Shown: piece after piece, positions 11,753-32,450 of the stretch
How positions within the stretch are numbered: position 1 is the stretch's first letter
Layout: each line of letters starts with the position of its first letter
Source: an uncultured Candidatus Saccharibacteria bacterium
GTDB lineage: Bacteria > Patescibacteriota > Doudnabacteria > UBA920
Length of the DNA stretch: 64,000 nucleotides
NCBI GenBank assembly: GCA_964650255.1
Contig: CAZYQT010000003.1
Location: 14,619 to 78,618 of the forward strand
Direction of reading: 5' to 3'
Notes under the pieces: generated by a model
The model's database searches: none
What the model saw: only the letters and a program-made list of their open reading frames with translations
What the model was told of the DNA's origin: nothing
Position numbers and translations under genes: made by a program

Positions 11753-12472
11753 TTAAGGCTGGCTATTTATTTTAGATAGAAAAGCATCTGCCCAGTTTCT
11801 ATAGCCTACATCATTTGGATGAAATTGATCTTCCGCAAATGTAGATTTTATATCCGGATAGTTTTTCCAACCAAATTCATGAATGTCTATTATGCGCACT
11901 CTGTCATTTTCAAGCTCAGCCATTTGGTGGTTAATTTTTATGAGGCGCTGTTGAAGAAATTTGCGGTAAACATACGGGAGTAGTGGGGCCTTCTCAACTA
12001 TGGGTATATTCGTAATGTAAATACGTGCCCTAGTTTGTTCGGTTAAGGTATTAATGATAGTTTTTAAGTTTGATACTGTGTCATTGGGATTTCGAAGATG
12101 AGTCACATCGTTACCACCGATTGAAAGCGTTATAATATCTGGTTGAAATTTAATAATTTGAGAGAGCTGATTGTTAATAACGTCGCTTGTCTTGGCTCCG
12201 GTAACGCCAACATTTTTGTATTCTACAGTGTGGGATGAAGATAAATCCTGCGCAATAAGATAGGGGTAGGAATGTTCAACAGAGCTGGCACCAACACCAA
12301 CAGCAGTGCTATCACCAGCAGCAATATATTTAAGTTCGTCACCATTTCCAAATTTTTGATCATGTTGAACAATGGTATTCAAGTGGGAAGTATACAAAAT
12401 GTACTTAAATCGAACCACGGTACCAATCGTGTATATGAGCAATACAGCAATTACAAGATAAAGAATTTTCAT
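11753..12472 (-). CDS. SGNH/GDSL hydrolase
   Basis: Block I AAGDSTAVG (catalytic Ser), block III LSIGGNDV, C-terminal DxxHP (DQFHPN). Confidence 0.7.
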   Translation of the reverse strand: MKILYLVIAVLLIYTIGTVVRFKYILYTSHLNTIVQHDQKFGNGDELKYIAAGDSTAVGVGASSVEHSYPYLIAQDLSSSHTVEYKNVGVTGAKTSDVINNQLSQIIKFQPDIITLSIGGNDVTHLRNPNDTVSNLKTIINTLTEQTRARIYITNIPIVEKAPLLPYVYRKFLQQRLIKINHQMAELENDRVRIIDIHEFGWKNYPDIKSTFAEDQFHPNDVGYRNWADAFLSKINSQP

Positions 12473-12485
12473 CAGTTAAGCATAA

Positions 12486-12512
12486 CAAAAAACCGCCCTA
12501 AAGGCGATTTTT
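12486..12512 (-). terminator. terminator, member of near-identical family aacaaaaaaccgccCTAAAggcgattttt
   Basis: cgcc/ggcg stem plus flanking A/T runs; nearly identical copies at 14216 and 15004, related copy at 13055. Confidence 0.6.
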
Positions 12513-12516
12513 GAAT

Positions 12517-12552
12517 GGGGTGGTATAGTGGAGGACGTTCGCACCGCTGTTA
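12517..12552 (-). repeat. conserved 36-nt box A (tRNA-His 3'-end-like; putative att-like remnant)
   Basis: ggggtggtatagtggaggacgttcgcaccgctgtta; minus-strand reading ends ...ACCACCCCA like the tRNA-His acceptor end CACCCCA; its last three bases form the stop codon of the upstream gene. Confidence 0.45.
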
Positions 12553-13038
12553 TCTGAGAAAGGTTTCTAAGAGAGTAGAATGAGACAATAGGTTAGTTTT
12601 ATTGGAAATGTCTTGAGCAGTACTTGGGCGTGTGTCAAAACCTAGCCATTCTCCTTGAGAGCTATATCTTAGATCAACTACAATTGCATCATCAATAATC
12701 CAAAAATCTTGGTGGGGGATATTCAATTTCTCTATTTGATCTTCAGTAATGATTCGGATATCGTCTCCAAAAGGAACTGTCTTTCTAAAGATTTCTATTT
12801 CCATTTCTTTGTAAGGGGTCAGTGGTTTTCTGATTAAGCTTACCCTTTGCATATTAATCCCATTTTCTTTTTTGGTTGATATATACTGCCACCAAGTTTG
12901 CATGTACTCTTCCGCGATTCGTTGTTCTTTTTCCCAAGTTAAACGCAACTCTTTTTCAGCATTAAGCGAAAAAGACTGTAAATATTCATATCGAAATAAT
13001 GAATGCTCGGCTTGATCAAGTGTCTCAAGTAATGTCAT
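12550..13038 (-). CDS. hypothetical protein (162 aa)
   Basis: Soluble; C-terminal DFWIIDDAIVVDLRYSSQGEWLGFD motif; no family confidently recognised. Confidence 0.5.
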   Translation of the reverse strand: MTLLETLDQAEHSLFRYEYLQSFSLNAEKELRLTWEKEQRIAEEYMQTWWQYISTKKENGINMQRVSLIRKPLTPYKEMEIEIFRKTVPFGDDIRIITEDQIEKLNIPHQDFWIIDDAIVVDLRYSSQGEWLGFDTRPSTAQDISNKTNLLSHSTLLETFLR

Positions 13039-13054
13039 ACATAGAATATAACAA

Positions 13055-13080
13055 GAAATCGCCCTGTAGGCGATTTTTGA
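13055..13080 (-). terminator. terminator (variant of the same family, aacaagaaatcgccCTGTAggcgattttt)
   Basis: atcgcc/ggcgat stem, loop ctgta, T-run. Confidence 0.55.
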
Positions 13081-13095
13081 ATTGGACTGGGCAAA

Positions 13096-13557
13096 TTAAG
13101 TTTGTTTTTGGGGGATCGGCTGAACAGGATCGCGAAATGAATTCAAGGTCTGCACTAGCTTAAATGTTAAAAGCCAAAAAACATACCAACTAATGAATTG
13201 GTTGTCTACTGGTTCGTATGGGAAAATTCTTGCCAATGCTAATATGCTATATAAGAAAAATGCAAACCATATTGCTAAGAAGAAATAGAAAAATTCTCCC
13301 AAAAATTGTTTTTGCTTTTCTTTGTTACCTAAGTTGTGAGTAATTGCCAGGGTAATTATGTTTTTAAGTATAATTAGAAAACCACCAATGAACATCAGCC
13401 TGAAAACGCCCAAGGCGTTTGTAGGTATACCGAACAATTTTATTACCCAAGCAATTGGGATAATTGAAAAAGCAGTAAATGACTGAATTGCAAAAATCAA
13501 TGCCAATATACTATACAAAAATATTTTAATTTTATTTACAGTGTTAATTTTTATCAT
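13096..13557 (-). CDS. 4-TM membrane protein (153 aa)
   Basis: Hydrophobic helices throughout; no recognisable family. Confidence 0.5.
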   Translation of the reverse strand: MIKINTVNKIKIFLYSILALIFAIQSFTAFSIIPIAWVIKLFGIPTNALGVFRLMFIGGFLIILKNIITLAITHNLGNKEKQKQFLGEFFYFFLAIWFAFFLYSILALARIFPYEPVDNQFISWYVFWLLTFKLVQTLNSFRDPVQPIPQKQT

Positions 13558-13574
13558 ATTTTAATAATATCAAA

Positions 13575-13599
13575 AAACACCTCGTATTACGAGATGCTT
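13575..13599 (-). terminator. terminator hairpin
   Basis: cacctcg/cgaggtg-like stem followed by TTTTTT on minus strand. Confidence 0.45.
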
Positions 13600-13606
13600 T
13601 TAGTTT

Positions 13607-13640
13607 CGGGTGTATAGTGGAAGATGTGACCACTGCGTTA
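13607..13640 (-). repeat. conserved box B
   Basis: cgggtgtatagtggaagatgtgaccactgcgtta; about 80% identical to boxes A and C. Confidence 0.45.
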
Positions 13641-13647
13641 ATTATAA

Positions 13648-14202
13648 TCAACTATTTATCCATTGTGATTTGTTTAAAATGTGATTTGCCACTTCCATCG
13701 CAACTTCTTCTGGATTTTTAGTATCCGTATCGATTATTTTGCAACCCTCCAAAGCAAATTTATCACGGAGTATTGGGGCAAATGCTGCGCACTCCTCCGC
13801 AAATTCTTTCAATGGCTTACCTGCTGCCCGTTCAATTTCTTTTTCACTCTCTTTTGTAGGATAGCGTCCAAGTAGGCGTCGTCTAATAACATCACCACTG
13901 GCATTCAAAAGTATTAATTCCGTTTCAGGGTATGCCTCATTCCACACAGCCCGAATCCGTTCAGGCTCGTTAAAACCGCAAATAACAGTTGATTTATCCT
14001 CCTTTGCATTAACTTTTCCTACCTCAAGCCAATTAGCAGTTTCTTGTTTATGCCATATCGGCCCACCTCCATCTGGTACGCCACGCTCATCGAAATCACG
14101 TATATCAAAATTACTCTCTGGTAGAAATTTTTTTAAGTGTTCCATCGTGGAGGTTTTACCAACTCCAGATACTCCGCTGACAAAGTAAATTTTTTTATTC
14201 AT
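13648..14202 (-). CDS. P-loop NTPase / small-molecule kinase-like (AAA_33-like)
   Basis: Walker A at N-terminus YFVSGVSGVGKTS; 184 aa. Confidence 0.6.
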   Translation of the reverse strand: MNKKIYFVSGVSGVGKTSTMEHLKKFLPESNFDIRDFDERGVPDGGGPIWHKQETANWLEVGKVNAKEDKSTVICGFNEPERIRAVWNEAYPETELILLNASGDVIRRRLLGRYPTKESEKEIERAAGKPLKEFAEECAAFAPILRDKFALEGCKIIDTDTKNPEEVAMEVANHILNKSQWINS

Positions 14203-14215
14203 ACTTTATAATTCT

Positions 14216-14244
14216 AACAAAAAACCGCCCTAAAGGCGATTTTA
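14216..14244 (-). terminator. terminator (family copy aacaaaaaaccgccCTAAAggcgatttta)
   Basis: Identical core to 12486-12512. Confidence 0.6.
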
Positions 14245-14258
14245 GTTATGAGATTCAT

Positions 14259-14294
14259 GGGGTCGCATAGTGGAAGATGTGGCAACTGCGGTTA
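14259..14294 (-). repeat. conserved box C
   Basis: ggggtcgcatagtggaagatgtggcaactgcggtta; ends in the stop codon of gene 14292..14651; minus-strand reading ends GCGACCCCA. Confidence 0.45.
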
Positions 14295-14651
14295 GAAACT
14301 TTCCCATGGCCATACCCAACTTGAATTCATTTGAGTAATTGGGTGTCCAGTCTTAATATAGAATGGCTCGAAGAACTTTATGTTACGTACGCAATAATCA
14401 CTTTCGCCGCTAGACCGATGTACTAATCCTTCCTTATAATCTTTTGCGTGGGGTCCTAGTACAATTACTTTATCCAAGTATTTTTGAGAATCTGTTTGAG
14501 GGCTACAAGAATAAGAAGTGAGAAGAGGGATAGCCAATATAATTATCACCAGAAAATATATAAGTCTACTCTTACCTTTGAATGCCAAGCTTAAGATTAT
14601 AAAACTTGCAGGTATTAGAGTGAGTATAATATATAAACCGCCATCAAACAT
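14292..14651 (-). CDS. small membrane-anchored protein (119 aa)
   Basis: N-terminal two TM helices; start overlaps the upstream gene stop by 8 nt. Confidence 0.5.
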   Translation of the reverse strand: MFDGGLYIILTLIPASFIILSLAFKGKSRLIYFLVIIILAIPLLTSYSCSPQTDSQKYLDKVIVLGPHAKDYKEGLVHRSSGESDYCVRNIKFFEPFYIKTGHPITQMNSSWVWPWESF

Positions 14652-14991
14652 TCGAATTTAAATTTACTGTTGATGAAACATGTCGTTTGTGAATTTTTTT
14701 GGTAAACCATAGGATGACGAATGCTATCACTATCCAAATGGCAATGTTGATAAACCAATTCAATATCAAAGTAGATGACTCAAATCCTAAAGAGCTATTT
14801 ACGCTTTGTCGGAAAGGAAATCCAAAGTGTAAAATAGTTTCCACAGACTTACCACTTTTATTTAGGGGTTCGGGTACAATATTATATTCAGGAGATACAG
14901 ATAAATAATAAATAGACCAGCCAAGGGCTATCCCTAAGAGTATACTCCAGCCTGCAAGATGTTTTTTTGTTTCCAAAGTAAATATTTTCAT
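14644..14991 (-). CDS. small membrane protein (115 aa)
   Basis: Start set to internal Met MKIFTLETKK, because the listed ORF start at 15093 would read through the terminator and tRNA-His. Confidence 0.5.
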   Translation of the reverse strand: MKIFTLETKKHLAGWSILLGIALGWSIYYLSVSPEYNIVPEPLNKSGKSVETILHFGFPFRQSVNSSLGFESSTLILNWFINIAIWIVIAFVILWFTKKIHKRHVSSTVNLNSNV

Positions 14992-15003
14992 ACATAAATA
15001 ATA

Positions 15004-15031
15004 ACAAAAAACCGCCGTAAAGGCGATTTTT
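15004..15031 (-). terminator. terminator directly after tRNA-His (family copy aacaaaaaaccgccGTAAAggcgattttt)
   Basis: cgcc/ggcg stem, T-run on minus strand. Confidence 0.6.
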
Positions 15032-15033
15032 GC

Positions 15034-15108
15034 TGGGGTGATCGAGGAGAATCGAACTCCCGACCTCGCTGCCACAGAGCGATGTTTTACCATTAAACTA
15101 CGACCACC
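15034..15108 (-). tRNA. tRNA-His (anticodon GTG) with encoded G-1 and CCA
   Basis: Hand-folded cloverleaf: G-1, acceptor GTGGTCG/CGATCAC, D-stem GTTT/AAAC, anticodon stem TCGCT/AGCGA with loop CTGTGGC, T-arm GGGAG-TTCGATT-CTCCT, discriminator C73, then CCA. Confidence 0.8.
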
Positions 15109-22531: not shown

Positions 22532-23035
22532 ATGGCTACTAAACATAAGAAAAAATTAGACAACCAAATTGCGCTGTCTGAGCGTTTTACGACTTGGCTT
22601 GGTTCGCCAGCTTCGATTGTGGTGCATACACTCCTGTTTTTGGCAGCTTTTGCTTTGGTAATTTTTGGTGTGCCGTTTGATTCTGTACTGTTAATTCTGA
22701 CCACAGCCGTGTCTTTAGAGGCAATTTACTTGGCGTTGTTTATTCAGATGACGGTTAACAAAAACACTCAGAGTTTGGCCGATGTAGAAGAAGATATTGA
22801 AGAGATTGCCGAAGACGTTGAAGGGATTGAGAAGGACATTGATGAAATCGAAAAAGATATTGATGAAATGCAGGAAGACGTGGAGGGGATTGAGCAGGAT
22901 ATTGATGAGATTGAAAAAGATGATGAAGAGGATGATCTCCACGACGAGCAAACAATGAAAACTTTAAATCAGCTTCAGACTGATATCCAAAAGGTGATGG
23001 AAGATTTGCAAACGTTGAAAGATCAAAAGAAATAA
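22532..23035 (+). CDS. DUF1003-like membrane protein with acidic heptad-repeat C-terminal coiled coil
   Basis: Two TM helices (ASIVVHTLLFLAAFALVIFGVPFDSVLLILTTAVSLEAIYLALFIQM), then seven 21-nt / 7-aa repeats xDIxEIE (22783-22930). Confidence 0.5.
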   Translation: MATKHKKKLDNQIALSERFTTWLGSPASIVVHTLLFLAAFALVIFGVPFDSVLLILTTAVSLEAIYLALFIQMTVNKNTQSLADVEEDIEEIAEDVEGIEKDIDEIEKDIDEMQEDVEGIEQDIDEIEKDDEEDDLHDEQTMKTLNQLQTDIQKVMEDLQTLKDQKK

Positions 23036-23040
23036 AATTA

Positions 23041-23077
23041 AACAGGCCGTGAGAGAATCAGGCCTGTTATTTTTTTT
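23041..23077 (+). terminator. rho-independent terminator
   Basis: aacaggcc/ggcctgtt 8-bp stem, 12-nt loop, T8 run. Confidence 0.7.
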
Positions 23078-23280
23078 GGTTTTTTAAACGCCAATAGGAA
23101 AAACAAGTTAACCCAACGATCGCAAATATGTATTCTGGCCACATTGTAAATGTGACGGTTGGGCCAAAAAGTAAGAGCAACGATGTTAAAATAAACATTT
23201 TTCCCCCTGTCTATTTTTCATCCGGTTCATCTTCAAAGTTACATAAATTATATCACAAGTTTATTCATCTGGAGAAATTT

Positions 23281-23335
23281 GCTGTCGCCATAGCGCAGAA
23301 TACAAACCGTTTTCTTTCAGGAGCTGTTCGTGAGT
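23281..23335 (-). pseudogene. duplicated relic of the ABC exporter 3' end (55-bp direct repeat, copy 1)
   Basis: 91% identical to 24268-24322; encodes the same peptide THEQLLKENGLYSALWRQ in the ABC frame with five third-position differences, but has no start codon and is interrupted upstream by a stop. Confidence 0.6.
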
Positions 23336-23379
23336 GGATAACTAATTTGTGCTCATTTAAGGCCACTTATATACTTTAA

Positions 23380-24258
23380 GTGTTATTAAATAAATCTATG
23401 GAGAAAACAAAAATGAATCACCATGCAAAAATGAAACTTTTGCTGGGGTTGTTAGTCTGTGTCGCAGTGGTTGGTGCTTTCTATTTGAAGACTAGTACAA
23501 ATGCGCTTCATGGGTTAAACTCTCATGCTGATGAGTTGCCGCAGGTTCATTGGCAACACGCAACCACACCTTTTGCTTTAAAGATTATTGACCATACCAC
23601 AACTAATTGGAACAATACTCTGGAGAATATAACGAAGAAATGGTCAGCGGCTGATGTTATTAATTATCAAATAACACCAAGCAAGGCTCCTTTCCAGTGT
23701 TACCCTATTGTCATGCCTCCTTCAGATACCGGCATGCATGTTTGCAATATCAACGAGGAAAATGACTGGTTGGCGATCGCGGGTTATACACAACTAGCTG
23801 ATAGCCCGCATATTTATTATGGATTGGTTGTGCTTAACGATTTTTATTTAAACAACGAGAGCTCTGAGTATTCTACTGATGCTTGGCGCAATAAACTAGT
23901 CTGTGAATACTTGGGCTGGACTGAAGGCCTACCGTTTCGATTAGATGTCGGAGACGATTCTAATAGTTGTATGAATCTGGATTATGGTTTTGGAAATGTT
24001 CACAAGCAACAGTATCCCGACCAAATCGATCTAGATAGCATGAAATTAATTTATCGTAATCATATTGATCCAATTATGCCTAGCAGCGAAGGTGTAACAA
24101 CTAAATCGACAAAACAAAAAGTCACTAACCAGTCTTTGCAGGATGGTAAGTTCGGTCGTTTAGTTGAAACTATCAACAACGGAACTACGGAAATTTATCA
24201 GTTAGAATTAGCTGATGGTTCTAAAATGAACACTTTGATTCAGAGGGCTAGGCATTAG
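23380..24258 (+). CDS. secreted/membrane-anchored hypothetical protein (292 aa), cargo of the inserted islet
   Basis: Signal-anchor LLLGLLVCVAVVGAFYL; no recognisable family; flanked by the 55-bp direct repeats. Confidence 0.55.
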   Translation: MLLNKSMEKTKMNHHAKMKLLLGLLVCVAVVGAFYLKTSTNALHGLNSHADELPQVHWQHATTPFALKIIDHTTTNWNNTLENITKKWSAADVINYQITPSKAPFQCYPIVMPPSDTGMHVCNINEENDWLAIAGYTQLADSPHIYYGLVVLNDFYLNNESSEYSTDAWRNKLVCEYLGWTEGLPFRLDVGDDSNSCMNLDYGFGNVHKQQYPDQIDLDSMKLIYRNHIDPIMPSSEGVTTKSTKQKVTNQSLQDGKFGRLVETINNGTTEIYQLELADGSKMNTLIQRARH

Positions 24259-25996
24259 TAGCAACCTGCTGCCGCCACAGTGCAGAGTACAAACCGTTTT
24301 CTTTAAGGAGCTGTTCGTGAGTACCTTGCTCAACCAGTTTACCTTTTTCAAGAACGAAAATAGTGTCAGCGTGAATGACGGTAGACAATCGGTGTGCTAC
24401 TAAGATGCGGATTAAATCTGGTCTCGTCTTTTCAATTTCCTTTATAGTCTGCGTAATTGATTCTTCGGTGATAGAGTCGAGTGAAGAAGTGGCTTCATCA
24501 AAAATTAGAAGGTCTGGATTGCGGAGTAGGGAGCGGGCAATAGCTAAGCGTTGTTTTTCACCACCGGAAAGCTTAAGGCCGCCTTCGCCAATTTTTGTGT
24601 CTAGACCCAAATCGCCGCCGCGTTCAAGCAAACTTTGCGCACTCGCGGCTTTAAGAGCATCAATACATTCTGAGTCAGTGGCTGTTGGTTTTACGAACTG
24701 CAAATTTTCGCGAATGGTGCCAGAGAACAATTGAGTTTCTTGGGCGACTAAGCCAACGCGGTTGCGCAAAGATACTAGATCAATTTCTGTGCTAGGCAAT
24801 CCGTTAAATAGCACTTGTCCTTCTGTGGGAGTGTAAAGACCAACGGTTAGTTTTATAACTGTACTTTTACCACTACCAGATGGCCCAACAAAAGCCACGG
24901 TTTTACCAGATTGGATTTCAAATTTTACCTTTGAAATCGCATGATCATTTCCGGTTTGGTAGCCAAAAGAAACGTCATTGAAAGCAATGGTACTGATTTT
25001 TCCAACAGGTTTTGGGTTTTCTGGCTGCTTGTCCTGTGGTTGGTTAAGAATTTCTTCAAGTTTTGCCAAGCTGGCTTTAGTTTCACCGTAGCTGGTTCCT
25101 AAATCTCCAAGGGCACCCAAAGGCGCAAAAATAAAGAATGAATAAATTTGTAGAGTGAAAAATTCCCCAATAGTTAATTGGCCCTCATAAATTAACCAGA
25201 ACATGGCAAGCATTAACACGGCACGCAGGGCGTTAATAATAGTCCCTTGCATAAAACTGTAGGCACGGATTAAGCGAACTTTTTTTAGTTCAAGATCGAG
25301 GATTTTTTGGTTGGTTAAATTAAGGCGATTAATTTCCTGACCCTCCAATCCTAAAGACTTAACCAATTCAACATTGCGCAATGTTTCAGTGGTGGATCCT
25401 GCCAAAGCCTGCGATTCATTAACAATTGGTGTTTGAGCGTCTTTGATTTTTTTAGTGATGTAAAAAGTTGTAATACCTAAAGTTGGGATCATCAACAAAT
25501 ACATTAAACCAATTAACCAGTGCACCCAGGTTGCGTAAATTAAGACAAACACAATTCCAACCAGGGACACGTAGAGCAGGCCAATAGCAAGGTTAAGAAA
25601 TTTTTGGGTATCGTTACGGGCTTGTTGTAGTTTTTGTAAAAATTCACCCGAGCGCTGATCTTCAAATACGGCATAGGGGAGAGAGAAGGAGTGAGTGACA
25701 CTGTCGGCATACATTTTTGCACCAAGGCGCTGGGTTATTACGTTGGTGTAATAGTCTTGAAAGTTCTTTGCTACGCGCGACACAAAAGCTGTACCAATGA
25801 AAGCTAACAGCAATAAAATAACTCCCTGGAAAAATTCTCCACGAGCAAAGTCTGAAAAATGCGCTGCGTATTTATCAACTAAAATTCGAAGCAGCTGCGG
25901 CTCCATTAAAGAAAACACTTGGTTAACCGTTGCCAAGATTAATGCTCCAGCAAGGAGGCCTTTGTAATTTTTTAAATATTTAGCGAATAGCTTCAT
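24248..25996 (-). CDS. ABC exporter, fused permease-ATPase (type I, MsbA-like)
   Basis: Six TM helices, then Walker A GPSGSGKST, signature LSGGEKQRLAIAR, Walker B LLIFDEATS. Confidence 0.85.
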   Translation of the reverse strand: MKLFAKYLKNYKGLLAGALILATVNQVFSLMEPQLLRILVDKYAAHFSDFARGEFFQGVILLLLAFIGTAFVSRVAKNFQDYYTNVITQRLGAKMYADSVTHSFSLPYAVFEDQRSGEFLQKLQQARNDTQKFLNLAIGLLYVSLVGIVFVLIYATWVHWLIGLMYLLMIPTLGITTFYITKKIKDAQTPIVNESQALAGSTTETLRNVELVKSLGLEGQEINRLNLTNQKILDLELKKVRLIRAYSFMQGTIINALRAVLMLAMFWLIYEGQLTIGEFFTLQIYSFFIFAPLGALGDLGTSYGETKASLAKLEEILNQPQDKQPENPKPVGKISTIAFNDVSFGYQTGNDHAISKVKFEIQSGKTVAFVGPSGSGKSTVIKLTVGLYTPTEGQVLFNGLPSTEIDLVSLRNRVGLVAQETQLFSGTIRENLQFVKPTATDSECIDALKAASAQSLLERGGDLGLDTKIGEGGLKLSGGEKQRLAIARSLLRNPDLLIFDEATSSLDSITEESITQTIKEIEKTRPDLIRILVAHRLSTVIHADTIFVLEKGKLVEQGTHEQLLKENGLYSALWRQQVATNA

Positions 25997-26013
25997 AGGG
26001 TGTAAATCAAGGA

Positions 26014-26802
26014 TTAGTTACTAACAGTGATCATAAATTTTTTAGTGTCATCAACATTGTTGGTGCTGTGGTCCCAGTCGGCAGCGGCGTCAAATAAAGT
26101 TTTATAATCGTACTGGTAATTTTTACCAAACTTAGTGCCTGGGTCATTGGTAATAAATTTGCCGTCTTCGGTCCAGCCGGTAATGACCATCATGTGATGA
26201 ATTGGTCCCGGCTGTTTATAGTGCGGGTTGTGCAAAGCACGACCGTTAAATGATATTAACACTAATTTGTTCTCTGCCAAAGCCTGCTTTATTTCTGATT
26301 CGGAAAGACCCAGCTGCTTTGTCTTTAAACCATACATAGCTTCAATCATTACTGATGTTTCGGCGGTTGTCTGGTCTAAATGATATCCTTGATGCTCGTC
26401 TTGCCAATGGGTGAGTTTATTTATTTCGCCTTCCACTAATGAGACTGTCAGTGTTTGGTCTGCCGGAGTTCCATCAAAGTAAGCATTGGCCATAATGGCG
26501 CTGGCTTCTTCGCAGGCTTCGTTGTGAAGTTCATCCCAATTTGCAGTTGGGGCTTGAGTCGTGAAAGGCACTTTTATTAGTAGGGAAGGAGGAAGCGGTT
26601 TCGCGGCTTCGTTAGGAGTGTCATTTGGGGTTTCTTTTTTTGGTGTGTCGGTTGGGCCGTCAAACGTTACTGCGGTTTTAGGCGCAGGCATGGATTGGTT
26701 AGACGCTCGGCGGTGTAATAAATAGAATGCACCCAAAGCAATTAGCGCTGTCAGAAAAAGCAGTACTAAAAATTTGGCTGAGTGTTTGCGGAATTTCCTC
26801 AT
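26014..26802 (-). CDS. membrane-anchored C39-like (Peptidase_C39_2) cysteine peptidase domain protein
   Basis: TM anchor, Pro/Thr-rich linker, VPFTTQAP...NEACEEAS (putative catalytic Cys) and C-terminal HHMMVITGW (putative His). Confidence 0.45.
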   Translation of the reverse strand: MRKFRKHSAKFLVLLFLTALIALGAFYLLHRRASNQSMPAPKTAVTFDGPTDTPKKETPNDTPNEAAKPLPPSLLIKVPFTTQAPTANWDELHNEACEEASAIMANAYFDGTPADQTLTVSLVEGEINKLTHWQDEHQGYHLDQTTAETSVMIEAMYGLKTKQLGLSESEIKQALAENKLVLISFNGRALHNPHYKQPGPIHHMMVITGWTEDGKFITNDPGTKFGKNYQYDYKTLFDAAADWDHSTNNVDDTKKFMITVSN

Positions 26803-27494
26803 AGAATATCGGACTTTTTAACTTCAATATATTCACCCACGGGAATGTTTTCTAGATGAAGTTTATTGATGCGCACCCGCTTTAAATTATGCACGCCCAA
26901 ACCAACCGCATTGAACATCCGCCTTACTTGTCGTTTTTTTCCTTCGTGAATAGTAATATAAATTTTTCCAGAGCGTTGGCGAATGCTTGCTGGTGAAGTC
27001 AGGCCAGTTGGCAATTCAATTCCCTCGCGAAGTTTTTCAAGTTGCGCAGGCTTAGCTGGTTCGTTGGTGATTACTTCGTACTCTTTATCGTGTTCGTACT
27101 TTGGGTGGGCAAGCTGTTGGGTGAGATCACCATCATTAGTTAGAATTAATAACCCTTCGGTATCGTAATCTAGACGACCAACGTTATGAACTTTGGTACG
27201 CAGCTCTTCTGGTAATAATGAGAATACGGTTTTGCGTCCATTCGGGTCTCGCTTGCTAACTACAGTGTTCTTTGGTTTGTTGAGCGCAATGTAAATTTTT
27301 TTAACCCGTGCTTCGCCTTTAGCTTTAACAATTTTTCCATAAACCTTAATTTCGTCGTTGTCTGGATCGACTTTGTCACCGAGTTTAGCCCTGCGCCCAT
27401 TAATTGAGACTTGCCCTGACTTAATAAACTCCTCGGCTTTTCGCCGAGAAGCAACACCAATTTCACTTAAAAATTTTTGAACTCGTTCTTGCAT
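26799..27494 (-). CDS. pseudouridine synthase, RsuA/RluB family
   Basis: N-terminal S4 domain (VASRRKAEEFIKSGQVSINGRR), catalytic motif HNVGRLDYDTEGLLILTNDG. Confidence 0.8.
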   Translation of the reverse strand: MQERVQKFLSEIGVASRRKAEEFIKSGQVSINGRRAKLGDKVDPDNDEIKVYGKIVKAKGEARVKKIYIALNKPKNTVVSKRDPNGRKTVFSLLPEELRTKVHNVGRLDYDTEGLLILTNDGDLTQQLAHPKYEHDKEYEVITNEPAKPAQLEKLREGIELPTGLTSPASIRQRSGKIYITIHEGKKRQVRRMFNAVGLGVHNLKRVRINKLHLENIPVGEYIEVKKSDIL

Positions 27495-31475: not shown

Positions 31476-32450
31476 CTATTTTTTGTTATGAAACTTCTTG
31501 TGGACTTCGCGCAGTTGCGAGTTGGTTACGTGAGTGTAGATTTGGGTAGTAGTAATAGAGGCGTGGCCAAGCAGGGTTTGTACGCTACGAATGTCAGCGC
31601 CGTTTTGAAGTAAGTCTGTAGCAAAAGAGTGTCGGAATGTGTGCGGCGTAACTTTATGCATAATTCCAGCAAGGGCCGCGTATTTTTTTACTAGGCGCTG
31701 CACACTGCGTGCTGTTAACCCCGCTGCGTGATGTTGATCACTTTTTTTGCCCATTGAGTCCATTTGCTTTGTAACTGAGTTGCCAATTTGGCTGTGACTT
31801 ACAAATAGGGCTGGATTGTTGTCCGTGCGCTTCTTAAGATAGGCGCGCAGCATTTTTACTGCTTCATCAGACATAAACACTAGGCGGAGTTTATCACCTT
31901 TGCCGCGTACAGTGAATTCGCCACGTTCAAAGTTTAATTGTTTTTGTTGGAGCTGTACTAGCTCAGAAATACGCACTCCGCTGGAAAAGAGCAGTTCTAG
32001 TATGGCTGCGTCTCGTAGTCGAGCGATTTCATTATCTTCCGAAGCAACTGCCTTTTTGATGCGCTCAATCTCTTCATTTGTCATAATTTCTACTTCACGC
32101 GCGGGATTCTTGGCTAATTCAATTTTTTCCGCAGATAGGGTATCTACATCGCGCTTAGCCAAATACTTCAAAAAAGCACGCAAAGCAATAACATGGTAGT
32201 TTTGGGTAACTAACTTTAAATTTTTGCCGCGTTCATCAGCAAGGCGATTAAGGAATAGGCGATAGGATCGCACAGTATCTAAAGTAATATCCTCGGGGCG
32301 ATTTAGGCTGTGAGCTTTAGCAAAAGCCGCAAAGCGGGCGAGATAGTGCTCATAGTTGCGAATAGTTAGTAAACTCTTGTTTTTCTCGATTTCGCAGTAT
32401 TCGAGGAACTCTCGTACATACTTTTCAATTTTCGTTTTGGTTTCAGACAT
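31476..32450 (-). CDS. tyrosine site-specific recombinase (XerC/XerD family)
   Basis: N-terminal SAM-like core-binding domain; C-terminal catalytic HTFRHSFATDLLQNGADIRSVQTLLGHASITTTQIYTHV (R-H-R-Y signature). Confidence 0.85.
   Translation of the reverse strand: MSETKTKIEKYVREFLEYCEIEKNKSLLTIRNYEHYLARFAAFAKAHSLNRPEDITLDTVRSYRLFLNRLADERGKNLKLVTQNYHVIALRAFLKYLAKRDVDTLSAEKIELAKNPAREVEIMTNEEIERIKKAVASEDNEIARLRDAAILELLFSSGVRISELVQLQQKQLNFERGEFTVRGKGDKLRLVFMSDEAVKMLRAYLKKRTDNNPALFVSHSQIGNSVTKQMDSMGKKSDQHHAAGLTARSVQRLVKKYAALAGIMHKVTPHTFRHSFATDLLQNGADIRSVQTLLGHASITTTQIYTHVTNSQLREVHKKFHNKK

What the first reader, a model, noticed from the sequence alone, without database searches (positions are those of the whole stretch)
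23281..24322. 1-kb single-gene islet inserted at the 3' end of an ABC exporter gene, flanked by a 55-bp direct repeat differing only at synonymous sites
Seen in sequence: 23281-23335 and 24268-24322 share 50 of 55 nt. Copy 2 is the real 3' end of the ABC exporter gene on the minus strand, encoding ...THEQLLKENGLYSALWRQQ.... Copy 1 encodes the identical peptide in the same frame. All five differences are third-position synonymous changes: CTT/CTG, TAC/TAT, GCA/GCG, CTG/CTA and CGG/CGA. Copy 1 has no start codon and is truncated by a stop, so it is a relic. Between the repeats lies one gene, 23380-24258, encoding a secreted or membrane-anchored 292-aa protein of unknown function, with its own terminator context. 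Inference: the synonymous-only pattern shows copy 1 evolved as coding sequence. This is the signature of an integrative element that targets the 3' end of a protein-coding gene and brings a replacement 3' end, attP-encoded, as many tRNA- and gene-end-targeting integrases do. One of the two copies originated in a different but related genome. Together with the tRNA-His array, the window shows two separate cases of very small single-gene insertions bounded by duplicated target 3' ends.
Basis: seen in the sequence. Interest (0 to 1): 0.62.

Follow-up and report, generated by a model that had tools for sequence, protein, structure and literature searches.

The report
Recombination scar beside an ABC gene
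A leftover copy of the last 25 codons of an ABC exporter gene lies about 1 kb downstream of the real gene end in a Patescibacteria genome; it is most likely a scar of recombination between two related strains at a gene slot that varies between genomes, not the footprint of a mobile integrative element.

Summary
The repeat is real: 50/55 nt, or 19 codons with six differences, all synonymous, followed by two diverged five-codon tails. An independent assembly reproduces it. Neutral drift would give this pattern with probability 1e-4 to 1e-3, so both copies evolved inside working ABC genes.

Three related Patescibacteria genomes carry a homologue of the 281-292-aa gene in the same slot and orientation, without any repeat.

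Across 11 clade genomes the slot holds this gene family (4), unrelated genes (4) or nothing (3). The four syntenic homologues are only 29-43% identical, against 72-90% for their flanks.

The window's extra DNA is a 300-bp block (hairpin, 43-aa ORF, relic) lying exactly between the neighbouring gene's stop codon and the conserved cargo promoter. No integrase, viral link or further repeat copy was found.

The cargo is a membrane-anchored protein with a snapalysin-like metzincin fold whose catalytic motif is lost.

Best explanation (0.6): exchange between a cargo-bearing and a cargo-less haplotype, homologous at one end and illegitimate at the other, as in 3'-end displacement at Rhs and T6SS loci. 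Which side was imported is unresolved. Interest is modest.

The parts
24248..25996 (-). Intact ABC exporter gene (582 aa, permease plus ATPase, MsbA-like), ending ...THEQLLKENGLYSALWRQQVATNA*
   Evidence: Pfam ABC_membrane plus ABC_tran. The best NCBIfam hit, MsbA, scores below its curated cut-off. Orthologues of 72-86% identity sit in syntenic loci.
24248..24322 (-). Repeat copy 2: the last 19 conserved codons, the five-codon tail VATNA and the stop of the working ABC gene.
   Evidence: The tail resembles those of the closest relatives (VASNE, VATGE, VASN, VASQE).
23257..23335 (-). Repeat copy 1 (relic): the same 19 codons with six synonymous differences, the tail ISPDE and a stop. It has no start codon and an in-frame TAG two codons upstream.
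   Evidence: It is also present in the independent contig L001.
23398..24258 (+). Cargo gene: a membrane-anchored pseudo-metzincin of 286 aa. The alternative starts are 23413 (281 aa, preceded by GGAG) and 23380 (292 aa, GTG). Its stop overlaps the ABC stop by 11 nt.
   Evidence: No Pfam or NCBIfam hit. The family has about 300 clusters at 50% identity. The AF2 model has pLDDT 90. The best PDB matches are snapalysin, MMP-3, myroilysin and astacins. The HExxHxxGxxH motif is replaced by CEYLGWTEGLPF.
23336..23397 (+). Cargo promoter and leader. It is homologous to the whole intergenic region between the DUF1003-like gene and the cargo homologue in relatives, and contains the conserved TATATACTTT at 23368-23377.
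   Evidence: Alignments with L102, L103 and L084. In the relatives this region starts directly after the DUF1003-like stop codon.
23036..23335 (.). Extra 300-bp block absent from all relatives: hairpin, 43-aa ORF, spacer and the ABC relic. The illegitimate junction is at 23335/23336.
   Evidence: The only blastn matches of the block are ABC 3' ends.
23067..23198 (-). 43-aa hydrophobic ORF downstream of the relic on the same strand. No homologue was found, so whether it is a real gene is unknown.
   Evidence: tblastn against all fetched loci matched only the window's own sequence.
23041..23068 (.). Strong hairpin (about -16 kcal/mol) followed by a T-run on the + strand. It is a probable bidirectional terminator for the DUF1003-like gene and for minus-strand read-through.
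   Evidence: RNA fold. The consensus scan missed it, whose criteria allow loops of only 3-8 nt.
22532..23035 (+). DUF1003-like membrane and coiled-coil gene, the conserved right-hand border of the variable slot.
   Evidence: Orthologues border the slot in L003, L084, L085, L086, L102, L103, L106 and L107.

Best explanation
The relic is a scar of recombination between two related Patescibacteria haplotypes that differed in what they carried between the ABC exporter gene and the DUF1003-like gene.

One haplotype carried the pseudo-metzincin gene: ABC-tail2 >< cargo - promoter - DUF1003. The other did not: ABC'-tail1 - 43-aa ORF - hairpin - DUF1003.

The exchange was homologous at one end and illegitimate at the other, with the illegitimate junction at 23335/23336. 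This is homology-facilitated illegitimate recombination or an equivalent template switch. As a result the window now holds both haplotype-specific segments in tandem, with the last 25 codons of the second ABC allele stranded between them.

The direction of the event is unresolved:
- (a) The cargo and a new ABC 3' end came in and displaced the old 3' end downstream, as at Rhs, CDI and T6SS loci.
- (b) A 300-bp fragment of a cargo-less relative was trapped next to the DUF1003-like anchor.

**Shown:** the repeat, its coding-type divergence, the synteny, the variability of the slot, and the absence of an integrase.

**Inferred:** the two parental haplotypes, the recombination mechanism and the route of DNA entry.
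For: 1. All six differences in the 19 codons are synonymous, dN is 0 over 44.5 sites, and the unconstrained tails differ at 8 of 18 nt. The relic therefore diverged while it was part of a working gene and was truncated recently.
2. No sampled relative has the same 19-aa peptide (2-5 differences each). The source was a close allele that has not been sampled, not a distant gene.
3. Cargo-family genes sit in the same slot and orientation in L084, L102 and L103/L104 without repeats.
4. The slot is hypervariable. Of 11 clade genomes, 4 hold the cargo family, 4 hold unrelated genes and 3 are empty. The syntenic cargo copies are 29-43% identical, against 72-90% for the flanks.
5. The extra 300 bp lies exactly between the DUF1003-like stop codon and the intact ancestral cargo promoter region, which is where homology between the two haplotypes would resume.
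6. The unit holds no integrase and neither the repeat nor the cargo was found on viral contigs.
7. The window holds no second MsbA-like ABC gene.
8. Published precedent exists. Clean homologous replacement is reported as common, with rarer HFIR events leaving orphaned 3' pieces, at Vibrio T6SS and Rhs loci (PMC5361080). Natural competence has been shown in Saccharibacteria (PMC10633639).
Against: - Neither parental haplotype has been observed. No sampled genome has an ABC gene ending ISPDE* followed by the 43-aa ORF, and no relative closer than 86% ABC identity exists in the databases searched.
- Microhomology at the junction cannot be assessed, because at most a 3-nt AGT can be inferred from L102.
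- No mosaic breakpoint is visible in the ABC gene, and synonymous sites are saturated against all relatives. Direction and donor therefore cannot be determined.
- In direction (a) the junction lies inside the homologous anchor, which needs a duplication-type outcome. I did not find that outcome documented for HFIR.
Confidence: 0.6

Rival explanations
1. A miniature integrative element targets the 3' end of the ABC gene by site-specific recombination. Its attP encodes a replacement 3' end (copy 2 plus VATNA), the relic is the displaced original end (attR), and the integrase acts in trans or has been lost.
For: - Direct repeats flank a single gene, and the target gene is kept intact.
- Empty sites exist in the relatives L086, L003 and L107.
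- Two identical 17-nt stretches within the repeat could serve as a crossover core.
- A second repeat family sits next to tRNA-His in the same window.
Against: - There is no integrase in the 1-kb unit or beside it. The only recombinase in the window is the conserved Xer-type orthologue at 31479-32429.
- Cargo-family genes elsewhere are not at ABC gene ends.
- No viral contig carries the repeat or the cargo.
- The right end of the 'element' coincides exactly with the end of the ancestral intergenic region. That fits haplotype recombination and would be a coincidence for an element.
Confidence: 0.1
2. The relic is the remnant of a second, tandem ABC paralogue. The ancestor carried two same-strand ABC genes flanking the cargo gene, and the downstream one was deleted except for its last 25 codons.
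For: - Both copies evolved under purifying selection.
- ABC half-transporters often occur as tandem pairs, and some distant loci do hold a second ABC gene nearby (L004, L007, L019, L027).
Against: - None of the 10 syntenic clade genomes has a second ABC gene at this position.
- The second ABC genes seen in distant loci are only 37-47% identical in this region and end differently.
- A 19/19 identical peptide between long-lived paralogues would be unusual when orthologues at 85% identity differ at 2-5 of these residues.
- This model needs a duplication, long co-existence and then a near-complete deletion.
Confidence: 0.12
3. A duplication of the ABC 3' end arose within this genome, for example as a target-site or tandem duplication during an insertion, and the non-functional copy then drifted.
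For: The direct-repeat topology is compatible with this model.
Against: - A drifting relic should accumulate changes at all codon positions. With the tails differing at 44% of sites, about 9 differences are expected at non-synonymous sites, and none is observed. The probability that six random substitutions are all synonymous is 1e-4 to 9e-4.
- There is no similarity beyond the 83-nt repeat that would point to a larger duplicated segment.
Confidence: 0.03

Closest known systems
3'-end (C-terminal) displacement with orphaned gene ends at Rhs, CDI and T6SS effector loci, attributed to homology-facilitated illegitimate recombination (PMC5361080 and the Rhs/CDI papers it cites)
   Same: - An intact conserved gene is followed, on the same strand, by a start-less fragment of its own 3' part that comes from another allele.
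- New DNA lies between the two.
- No integrase is involved.
- Clean homologous replacement is the usual outcome in relatives, and the scar is the rare one.
   Different: - The gene here is a housekeeping-type ABC exporter, not a polymorphic toxin.
- The displaced piece is only 25 codons and carries no toxin domain or immunity gene.
- There is one relic, not an array.
- The organism is a Patescibacteria member.
- The direction of the event is unresolved.
Homology-facilitated illegitimate recombination during natural transformation (Acinetobacter, S. pneumoniae and P. stutzeri; references cited in PMC5361080 and PMC3240628)
   Same: One homologous anchor and one illegitimate junction trap a short stretch of non-homologous DNA next to the anchor.
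   Different: - Nothing was tested experimentally here.
- Microhomology at the junction cannot be verified.
- The HFIR passages read here do not say whether recipient DNA is usually deleted at the illegitimate junction; here none appears to have been lost.
Genomic islands and prophages that integrate into the 3' end of a tRNA or protein gene and restore it from attP
   Same: Direct repeats made of the target gene's 3' end flank the extra DNA, and the target gene stays intact.
   Different: - There is no integrase and no element genes.
- The unit is only 1 kb with a single resident-type gene.
- The same gene family occupies the site in relatives without att repeats.
Snapalysin (MEROPS M7) and other minimal metzincins, as the closest relatives of the cargo protein
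   Same: - The predicted fold matches (Foldseek E = 3e-6, TM 0.71 on the target).
- Distant family members carry (H/Q)ExxHxxGxxH.
   Different: - The cargo and its CPR clade have lost all zinc ligands and the catalytic Glu.
- They carry an N-terminal membrane anchor and an extra C-terminal beta-domain.
- No Pfam or NCBIfam model covers them.

Membership tests
Integrase-driven integrative element inserting into a gene 3' end | The element encodes, or lies adjacent to, a site-specific recombinase | tested here: not met
   The unit holds a single ORF with a metzincin-like fold. The only recombinase in the window is the Xer-type orthologue at 31479-32429, which is conserved in L085 and L105.
Integrase-driven integrative element inserting into a gene 3' end | Direct repeats (attL/attR) derived from the target 3' end flank the insert | tested here: met
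   Two copies of 55-83 nt lie 987 nt apart.
Integrase-driven integrative element inserting into a gene 3' end | The cargo is absent from the site in relatives, or present only together with the att repeats | tested here: not met
   L084, L102 and L103/L104 carry a homologue in the same slot with no repeat. L086, L003 and L107 are empty.
Integrase-driven integrative element inserting into a gene 3' end | The same element or att sequence recurs at the same target in other genomes or on mobile DNA | tested here: not met
   There are no viral-contig matches to the repeat or the cargo. Family members elsewhere are not at ABC gene ends.
HFIR / 3'-end displacement scar | A start-less fragment of the conserved gene's 3' part lies downstream of the intact gene on the same strand | tested here: met
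HFIR / 3'-end displacement scar | The fragment derives from a different functional allele, shown by a coding-type substitution pattern | tested here: met
   All six differences are synonymous, dN = 0, and the tails have diverged.
HFIR / 3'-end displacement scar | The locus is a recombination hot spot with alternative contents between conserved flanks | tested here: met
   Slot census of 11 genomes.
HFIR / 3'-end displacement scar | Short microhomology at the illegitimate junction | tested here: inconclusive
   Only a possible 3-nt AGT can be inferred from L102. The parental sequences are unknown.
HFIR / 3'-end displacement scar | DNA uptake and RecA-dependent recombination operate in this organism | not testable with these tools
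   Competence has been shown for Saccharibacteria only (PMC10633639).
Metzincin metallopeptidase (cargo protein) | Metzincin catalytic-domain fold | tested here: met
   The AF2 model has pLDDT 90. The top PDB matches are snapalysin, MMP-3, myroilysin, MMP-12 and astacins.
Metzincin metallopeptidase (cargo protein) | HExxHxxGxxH zinc-binding and catalytic motif | tested here: not met
   The cargo has CEYLGWTEGLPF at the aligned position. Distant family members have (H/Q)E(L/I/V)GHTxGLxH. The protein is therefore a probable pseudo-enzyme.
MsbA-type ABC exporter (target gene) | Fused ABC_membrane and ABC_tran domains | tested here: met
MsbA-type ABC exporter (target gene) | Score above the curated equivalog cut-off for MsbA | tested here: not met
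   TIGR02203 scores 353 bits against a cut-off of 602. It is a generic ABC subfamily-B exporter.

The most novel reading that the evidence does not exclude
The 57-75-bp direct repeats make the pseudo-metzincin gene a minimal cassette without its own integrase. Such a cassette could be precisely excised and re-inserted at the ABC gene end, leaving a working ABC gene ending either VATNA* or ISPDE*. It might be moved by the resident Xer-type recombinase or by short-homology recombination. On this reading it would represent a general way for ultra-small Patescibacteria genomes to swap surface-protein genes, with the tRNA-His repeat array as a second instance.
Probability: 0.07. Interest if true: 0.65.

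Novelty: new member of a known kind. Interest (0 to 1): 0.3.

Why it matters
The relic is direct, datable sequence evidence that related Patescibacteria lineages exchange DNA at a hypervariable slot between conserved genes. It also shows that at least one such exchange used an illegitimate junction.

Few cases of this kind have been documented in these mostly uncultivated, reduced genomes. Recombination there is usually inferred only from phylogenetic incongruence.

The slot's usual occupant also turns out to belong to an undescribed family of fast-evolving, membrane-anchored, catalytically dead metzincin-like proteins. That makes it a plausible cell-surface interaction factor for an episymbiotic lifestyle.

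None of this changes current concepts. It removes a candidate 'new mobile element' and replaces it with an ordinary, though neatly preserved, recombination scar.

Tried and rejected
1. **Closer relatives.** I searched for a relative that would show the empty or donor haplotype. The best ABC match in 5.8 billion clusters is 85-86% identical, and none has the ISPDE tail or the identical 19-aa peptide.
2. **43-aa ORF and the 300-bp block.** A search of all fetched loci found only ABC ends and the window's own sequence.
3. **Relics in other genomes.** I looked in L003, L084-L086, L103 and L105-L107 and found none.
4. **Repeat around the distant cargo homologue in L083.** There is none.
5. **Mosaic breakpoints.** Sliding-window identity along ABC, plus inspection of the aligned DUF1003-like proteins, gave no signal.
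6. **Assigning each copy to a lineage by synonymous sites.** These sites are saturated, with splits of 3/2, 2/4 and so on.
7. **Viral-contig scans.** Scans for the repeat and for the cargo both returned nothing.
8. **Rfam scan of the window.** It found only four tRNAs.
9. **First metagenome scan.** The scan with the 40-sequence alignment failed for lack of a conserved stretch. It was repeated with 7 sequences.
10. **Chance or assembly artefact.** Rejected on the shuffle test and the independent contig.
11. **Fortuitous tail.** I rejected the idea that VATNA* is a chance read-through into inserted DNA, because it matches the VA[ST]xx tails of the relatives.
Full report
**1. Observation**

The two copies are real. 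Window 23281-23335 and 24268-24322 share 50 of 55 nt. On the minus strand both encode THEQLLKENGLYSALWRQQ.

- Counting whole codons (57 nt) there are six differences. All are third-position and synonymous, giving pS = 6/12.5 = 0.48 and dN = 0/44.5.
- Homology continues more weakly through two five-codon tails in the same register. The relic ends ISPDE* and the working gene ends VATNA*, and the tails plus stops share 10 of 18 nt.
- Two codons upstream of the relic an in-frame TAG ends the frame, and there is no start codon.
- A 41-nt core of the repeat occurs exactly twice in the window, with none expected by chance.
- An independently assembled contig (L001) is 100% identical over window 22777-27452, so this is not an assembly artefact.

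**2. Substitution pattern**

If the relic had drifted neutrally after an in-place duplication, changes would fall on all codon positions.

- The probability that six random substitutions are all synonymous is 1e-4 to 9e-4, depending on transition bias.
- The tails differ at 44% of sites. At that level of divergence about nine changes would be expected at non-synonymous sites of the relic, and none is seen.
- Both copies therefore spent nearly all of their divergence time inside working ABC genes, and the truncation is recent.

**3. Organism and synteny**

The window comes from a Patescibacteria (CPR) genome. The gene order is histidine kinase, RluB, C39-like peptidase, ABC exporter, [slot], DUF1003-like gene, FAD oxidase, M23/FG-GAP protein. 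This order is conserved in relatives whose ABC proteins are 72-86% identical.

**4. The cargo gene is a usual occupant of the slot**

- The first protein search found only one distant homologue. The exhaustive representative search then found a family of about 300 clusters at 50% identity.
- Family members lie in exactly the same slot and orientation (DUF1003-like -> homologue -> <- ABC) in three other genomes:
  - L084 (ABC 85% identical)
  - L102 (carrying the closest homologue, 42-44% identical)
  - L103/L104
- None of these has a relic or any direct repeat.
- In L084 and L102 a hairpin terminator separates the two convergent stop codons. In the window the two genes overlap by 11 nt and no terminator is predicted.
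- Elsewhere the family is found at unrelated positions, for example between IF-2 and a DAGK-family gene in L083, L100 and L101. It is not next to MsbA-like ABC gene ends there.

**5. The slot is hypervariable**

| Slot content | Genomes |
|---|---|
| Cargo-family gene | window, L084, L102, L103/L104 |
| Empty | L086, L003, L107 |
| Unrelated genes | L085, L105, L106, P0007 contig |

The four syntenic cargo copies are only 29-43% identical to one another. That is no closer than they are to family members at other loci, while the flanking ABC and FAD-oxidase proteins are 71-90% identical across these genomes. Either the gene evolves extremely fast or its alleles are repeatedly exchanged.

**6. 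Anatomy of the extra DNA**

- In the three relatives the intergenic region from the DUF1003-like stop to the cargo start is 66-105 nt and contains a conserved TATATACTTT element.
- The window has the same region intact at 23336-23397, with TATATACTTT at 23368-23377.
- Between that region and the DUF1003-like stop (23035) lies a 300-bp block found in no relative. It consists of:
  - a strong hairpin with a T-run (23041-23068, about -16 kcal/mol)
  - a 43-aa hydrophobic ORF on the minus strand with no homologues
  - a 57-nt spacer
  - the relic
- Read on the minus strand, the block looks like the end of another ABC allele together with its own downstream region, running up to the DUF1003-like gene.
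- The window therefore equals a cargo-bearing haplotype, complete up to the point where homology with a cargo-less haplotype resumes. That is joined at 23335/23336 to a cargo-less haplotype beginning at ABC codon 562.

**7. Mechanism**

The simplest account is one recombination event between two such haplotypes. It would be homologous at one end and illegitimate at the other. This is homology-facilitated illegitimate recombination, or a template switch at the border of a heteroduplex.

Two directions give the same product:
- (a) The cargo and a new ABC 3' end entered a cargo-less genome and displaced the old end downstream.
- (b) A short fragment of a cargo-less relative (relic, 43-aa ORF, hairpin) was trapped next to the DUF1003-like anchor in a cargo-bearing genome.

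I could not separate the two directions:
- No relative closer than 86% ABC identity exists in the databases searched.
- Sliding-window identity shows no breakpoint.
- Synonymous sites are saturated against all relatives.
- Tail similarity is ambiguous. VATNA resembles the VA[ST]xx tails of close relatives, while ISPDE resembles the IASxE tails of slightly more distant ones.

The published analogue is the displacement of effector 3' ends and modules at Vibrio T6SS and Rhs loci. There, clean homologous replacement is considered common and HFIR rare, with the rare events leaving orphaned pieces (PMC5361080). Natural competence has been demonstrated in Saccharibacteria (PMC10633639). DNA uptake in this lineage is plausible but was not tested.

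**8. Rival explanations**

- **Integrase-driven element.** This is disfavoured.
  - The 1-kb unit encodes only the pseudo-metzincin.
  - The sole recombinase in the window (31479-32429) is the conserved Xer-type orthologue, 86% identical to the one in L085.
  - Neither the repeat nor the cargo was found on viral contigs.
  - The same gene family sits in the slot without att-like repeats in three genomes.
- **Lost tandem ABC paralogue.** This would also explain the purifying selection. However, no syntenic relative has a second ABC gene there, the window has no other MsbA-like gene, and 19/19 identical residues would be unusual for old paralogues.
- **In-place duplication followed by drift.** The substitution pattern effectively excludes this.

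**9. The proteins**

- **ABC gene.** It is a generic subfamily-B exporter with ABC_membrane and ABC_tran domains. It scores below the MsbA equivalog cut-off.
- **Cargo protein.**
  - It has an N-terminal transmembrane helix.
  - A confident AlphaFold model (pLDDT 90, pTM 0.81) has as its best solved-structure matches snapalysin, stromelysin-1, myroilysin, MMP-12 and astacins.
  - Distant family members carry (H/Q)ExxHxxGxxH and give weak Pfam metzincin hits.
  - The cargo and its CPR relatives have CEYLGWTEGLPF at that position, so every zinc ligand and the catalytic glutamate are replaced.
  - It is best described as a membrane-anchored, extracellular, catalytically dead metzincin-like protein. 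A role in surface binding is an inference.

**10. Verdict**

The inference that the relic evolved as coding sequence in a related genome is supported. The integrative-element mechanism and the view of the gene as a foreign islet are not supported.

The feature is a well-preserved recombination scar at a variable slot, a known kind of event seen here in an unusual lineage and at an unusual gene. Interest is modest at 0.3. It would rise if read-level data showed active excision, or if such relics proved recurrent in Patescibacteria.

Noticed in passing
window 12461-15107: Four copies of a ~59-nt unit (hairpin AAAAAACCGCCnnAAGGCGATTTTT plus flanks) start at 12461, 13027, 14193 and 14980. The start-to-start spacings are 566, 1166 and 787 nt, and each copy follows one or two small minus-strand ORFs. 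Only the last copy adjoins the single intact tRNA-His (15034-15107). Copies 1 and 3 keep 6-8 nt resembling the tRNA 3' end (CACCCCA).
   Followed up: partly
slot between the ABC and DUF1003-like genes in L003, L084-L086 and L102-L107: The slot content differs in almost every clade genome: a pseudo-metzincin, unrelated genes of 77-209 aa, or nothing. Neighbouring intergenic positions also vary, for example a 208-aa gene (no domain search run) in L003, a 287-aa gene in L085, and an APH gene plus an 83-aa gene in L103.
   Followed up: partly
window 24248-24258: The convergent cargo and ABC genes overlap by 11 nt with no terminator between them. L084 and L102 have a clear hairpin terminator at this position. 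ABC transcription here would run antisense through the cargo gene, possibly as far as the hairpin at 23041-23068.
   Followed up: partly
window 22787-22954 (DUF1003-like gene): There are 21-nt (7-aa) tandem repeats encoding an acidic E/D-I-E/D coiled-coil segment. The copy number differs between relatives: the window and L003 each have one unit more than L084, L085, L086 and L106.
   Followed up: no
L085 compared with the window: The L085 ABC protein is 85% identical to the window's. Its RluB, FAD oxidase and M23 proteins are only 78%, 76-77% and 58% identical, whereas L084 and L086 are at 80-92% for those genes. The ABC gene may have been exchanged between lineages, or it may simply be more constrained.
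   Followed up: no
cargo protein family (alignment A2; P0149-P0159): This uncharacterised family has about 300 clusters at 50% identity and no Pfam or NCBIfam model. One branch keeps a metzincin motif, often with Gln in place of the first His (QEIGHTFGLxH). The CPR branch has lost the motif entirely but keeps four invariant cysteines.
   Followed up: partly
window 23067-23198 (minus strand): A 43-aa hydrophobic ORF (MFILTSLLLLFGPTVTFTMWPEYIFAIVGLTCFSYWRLKNQKK) is preceded by a G-rich stretch. It has no detectable homologue in any fetched locus, and whether it is a real gene is unknown.
   Followed up: partly
window 31479-32429 (minus strand): A tyrosine recombinase, 86% identical to the Phage_integrase-domain protein of L085. 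A Phage_integrase-domain gene is also called at the edge of L105. It looks like the resident Xer-type enzyme rather than one carried by a mobile element.
   Followed up: no
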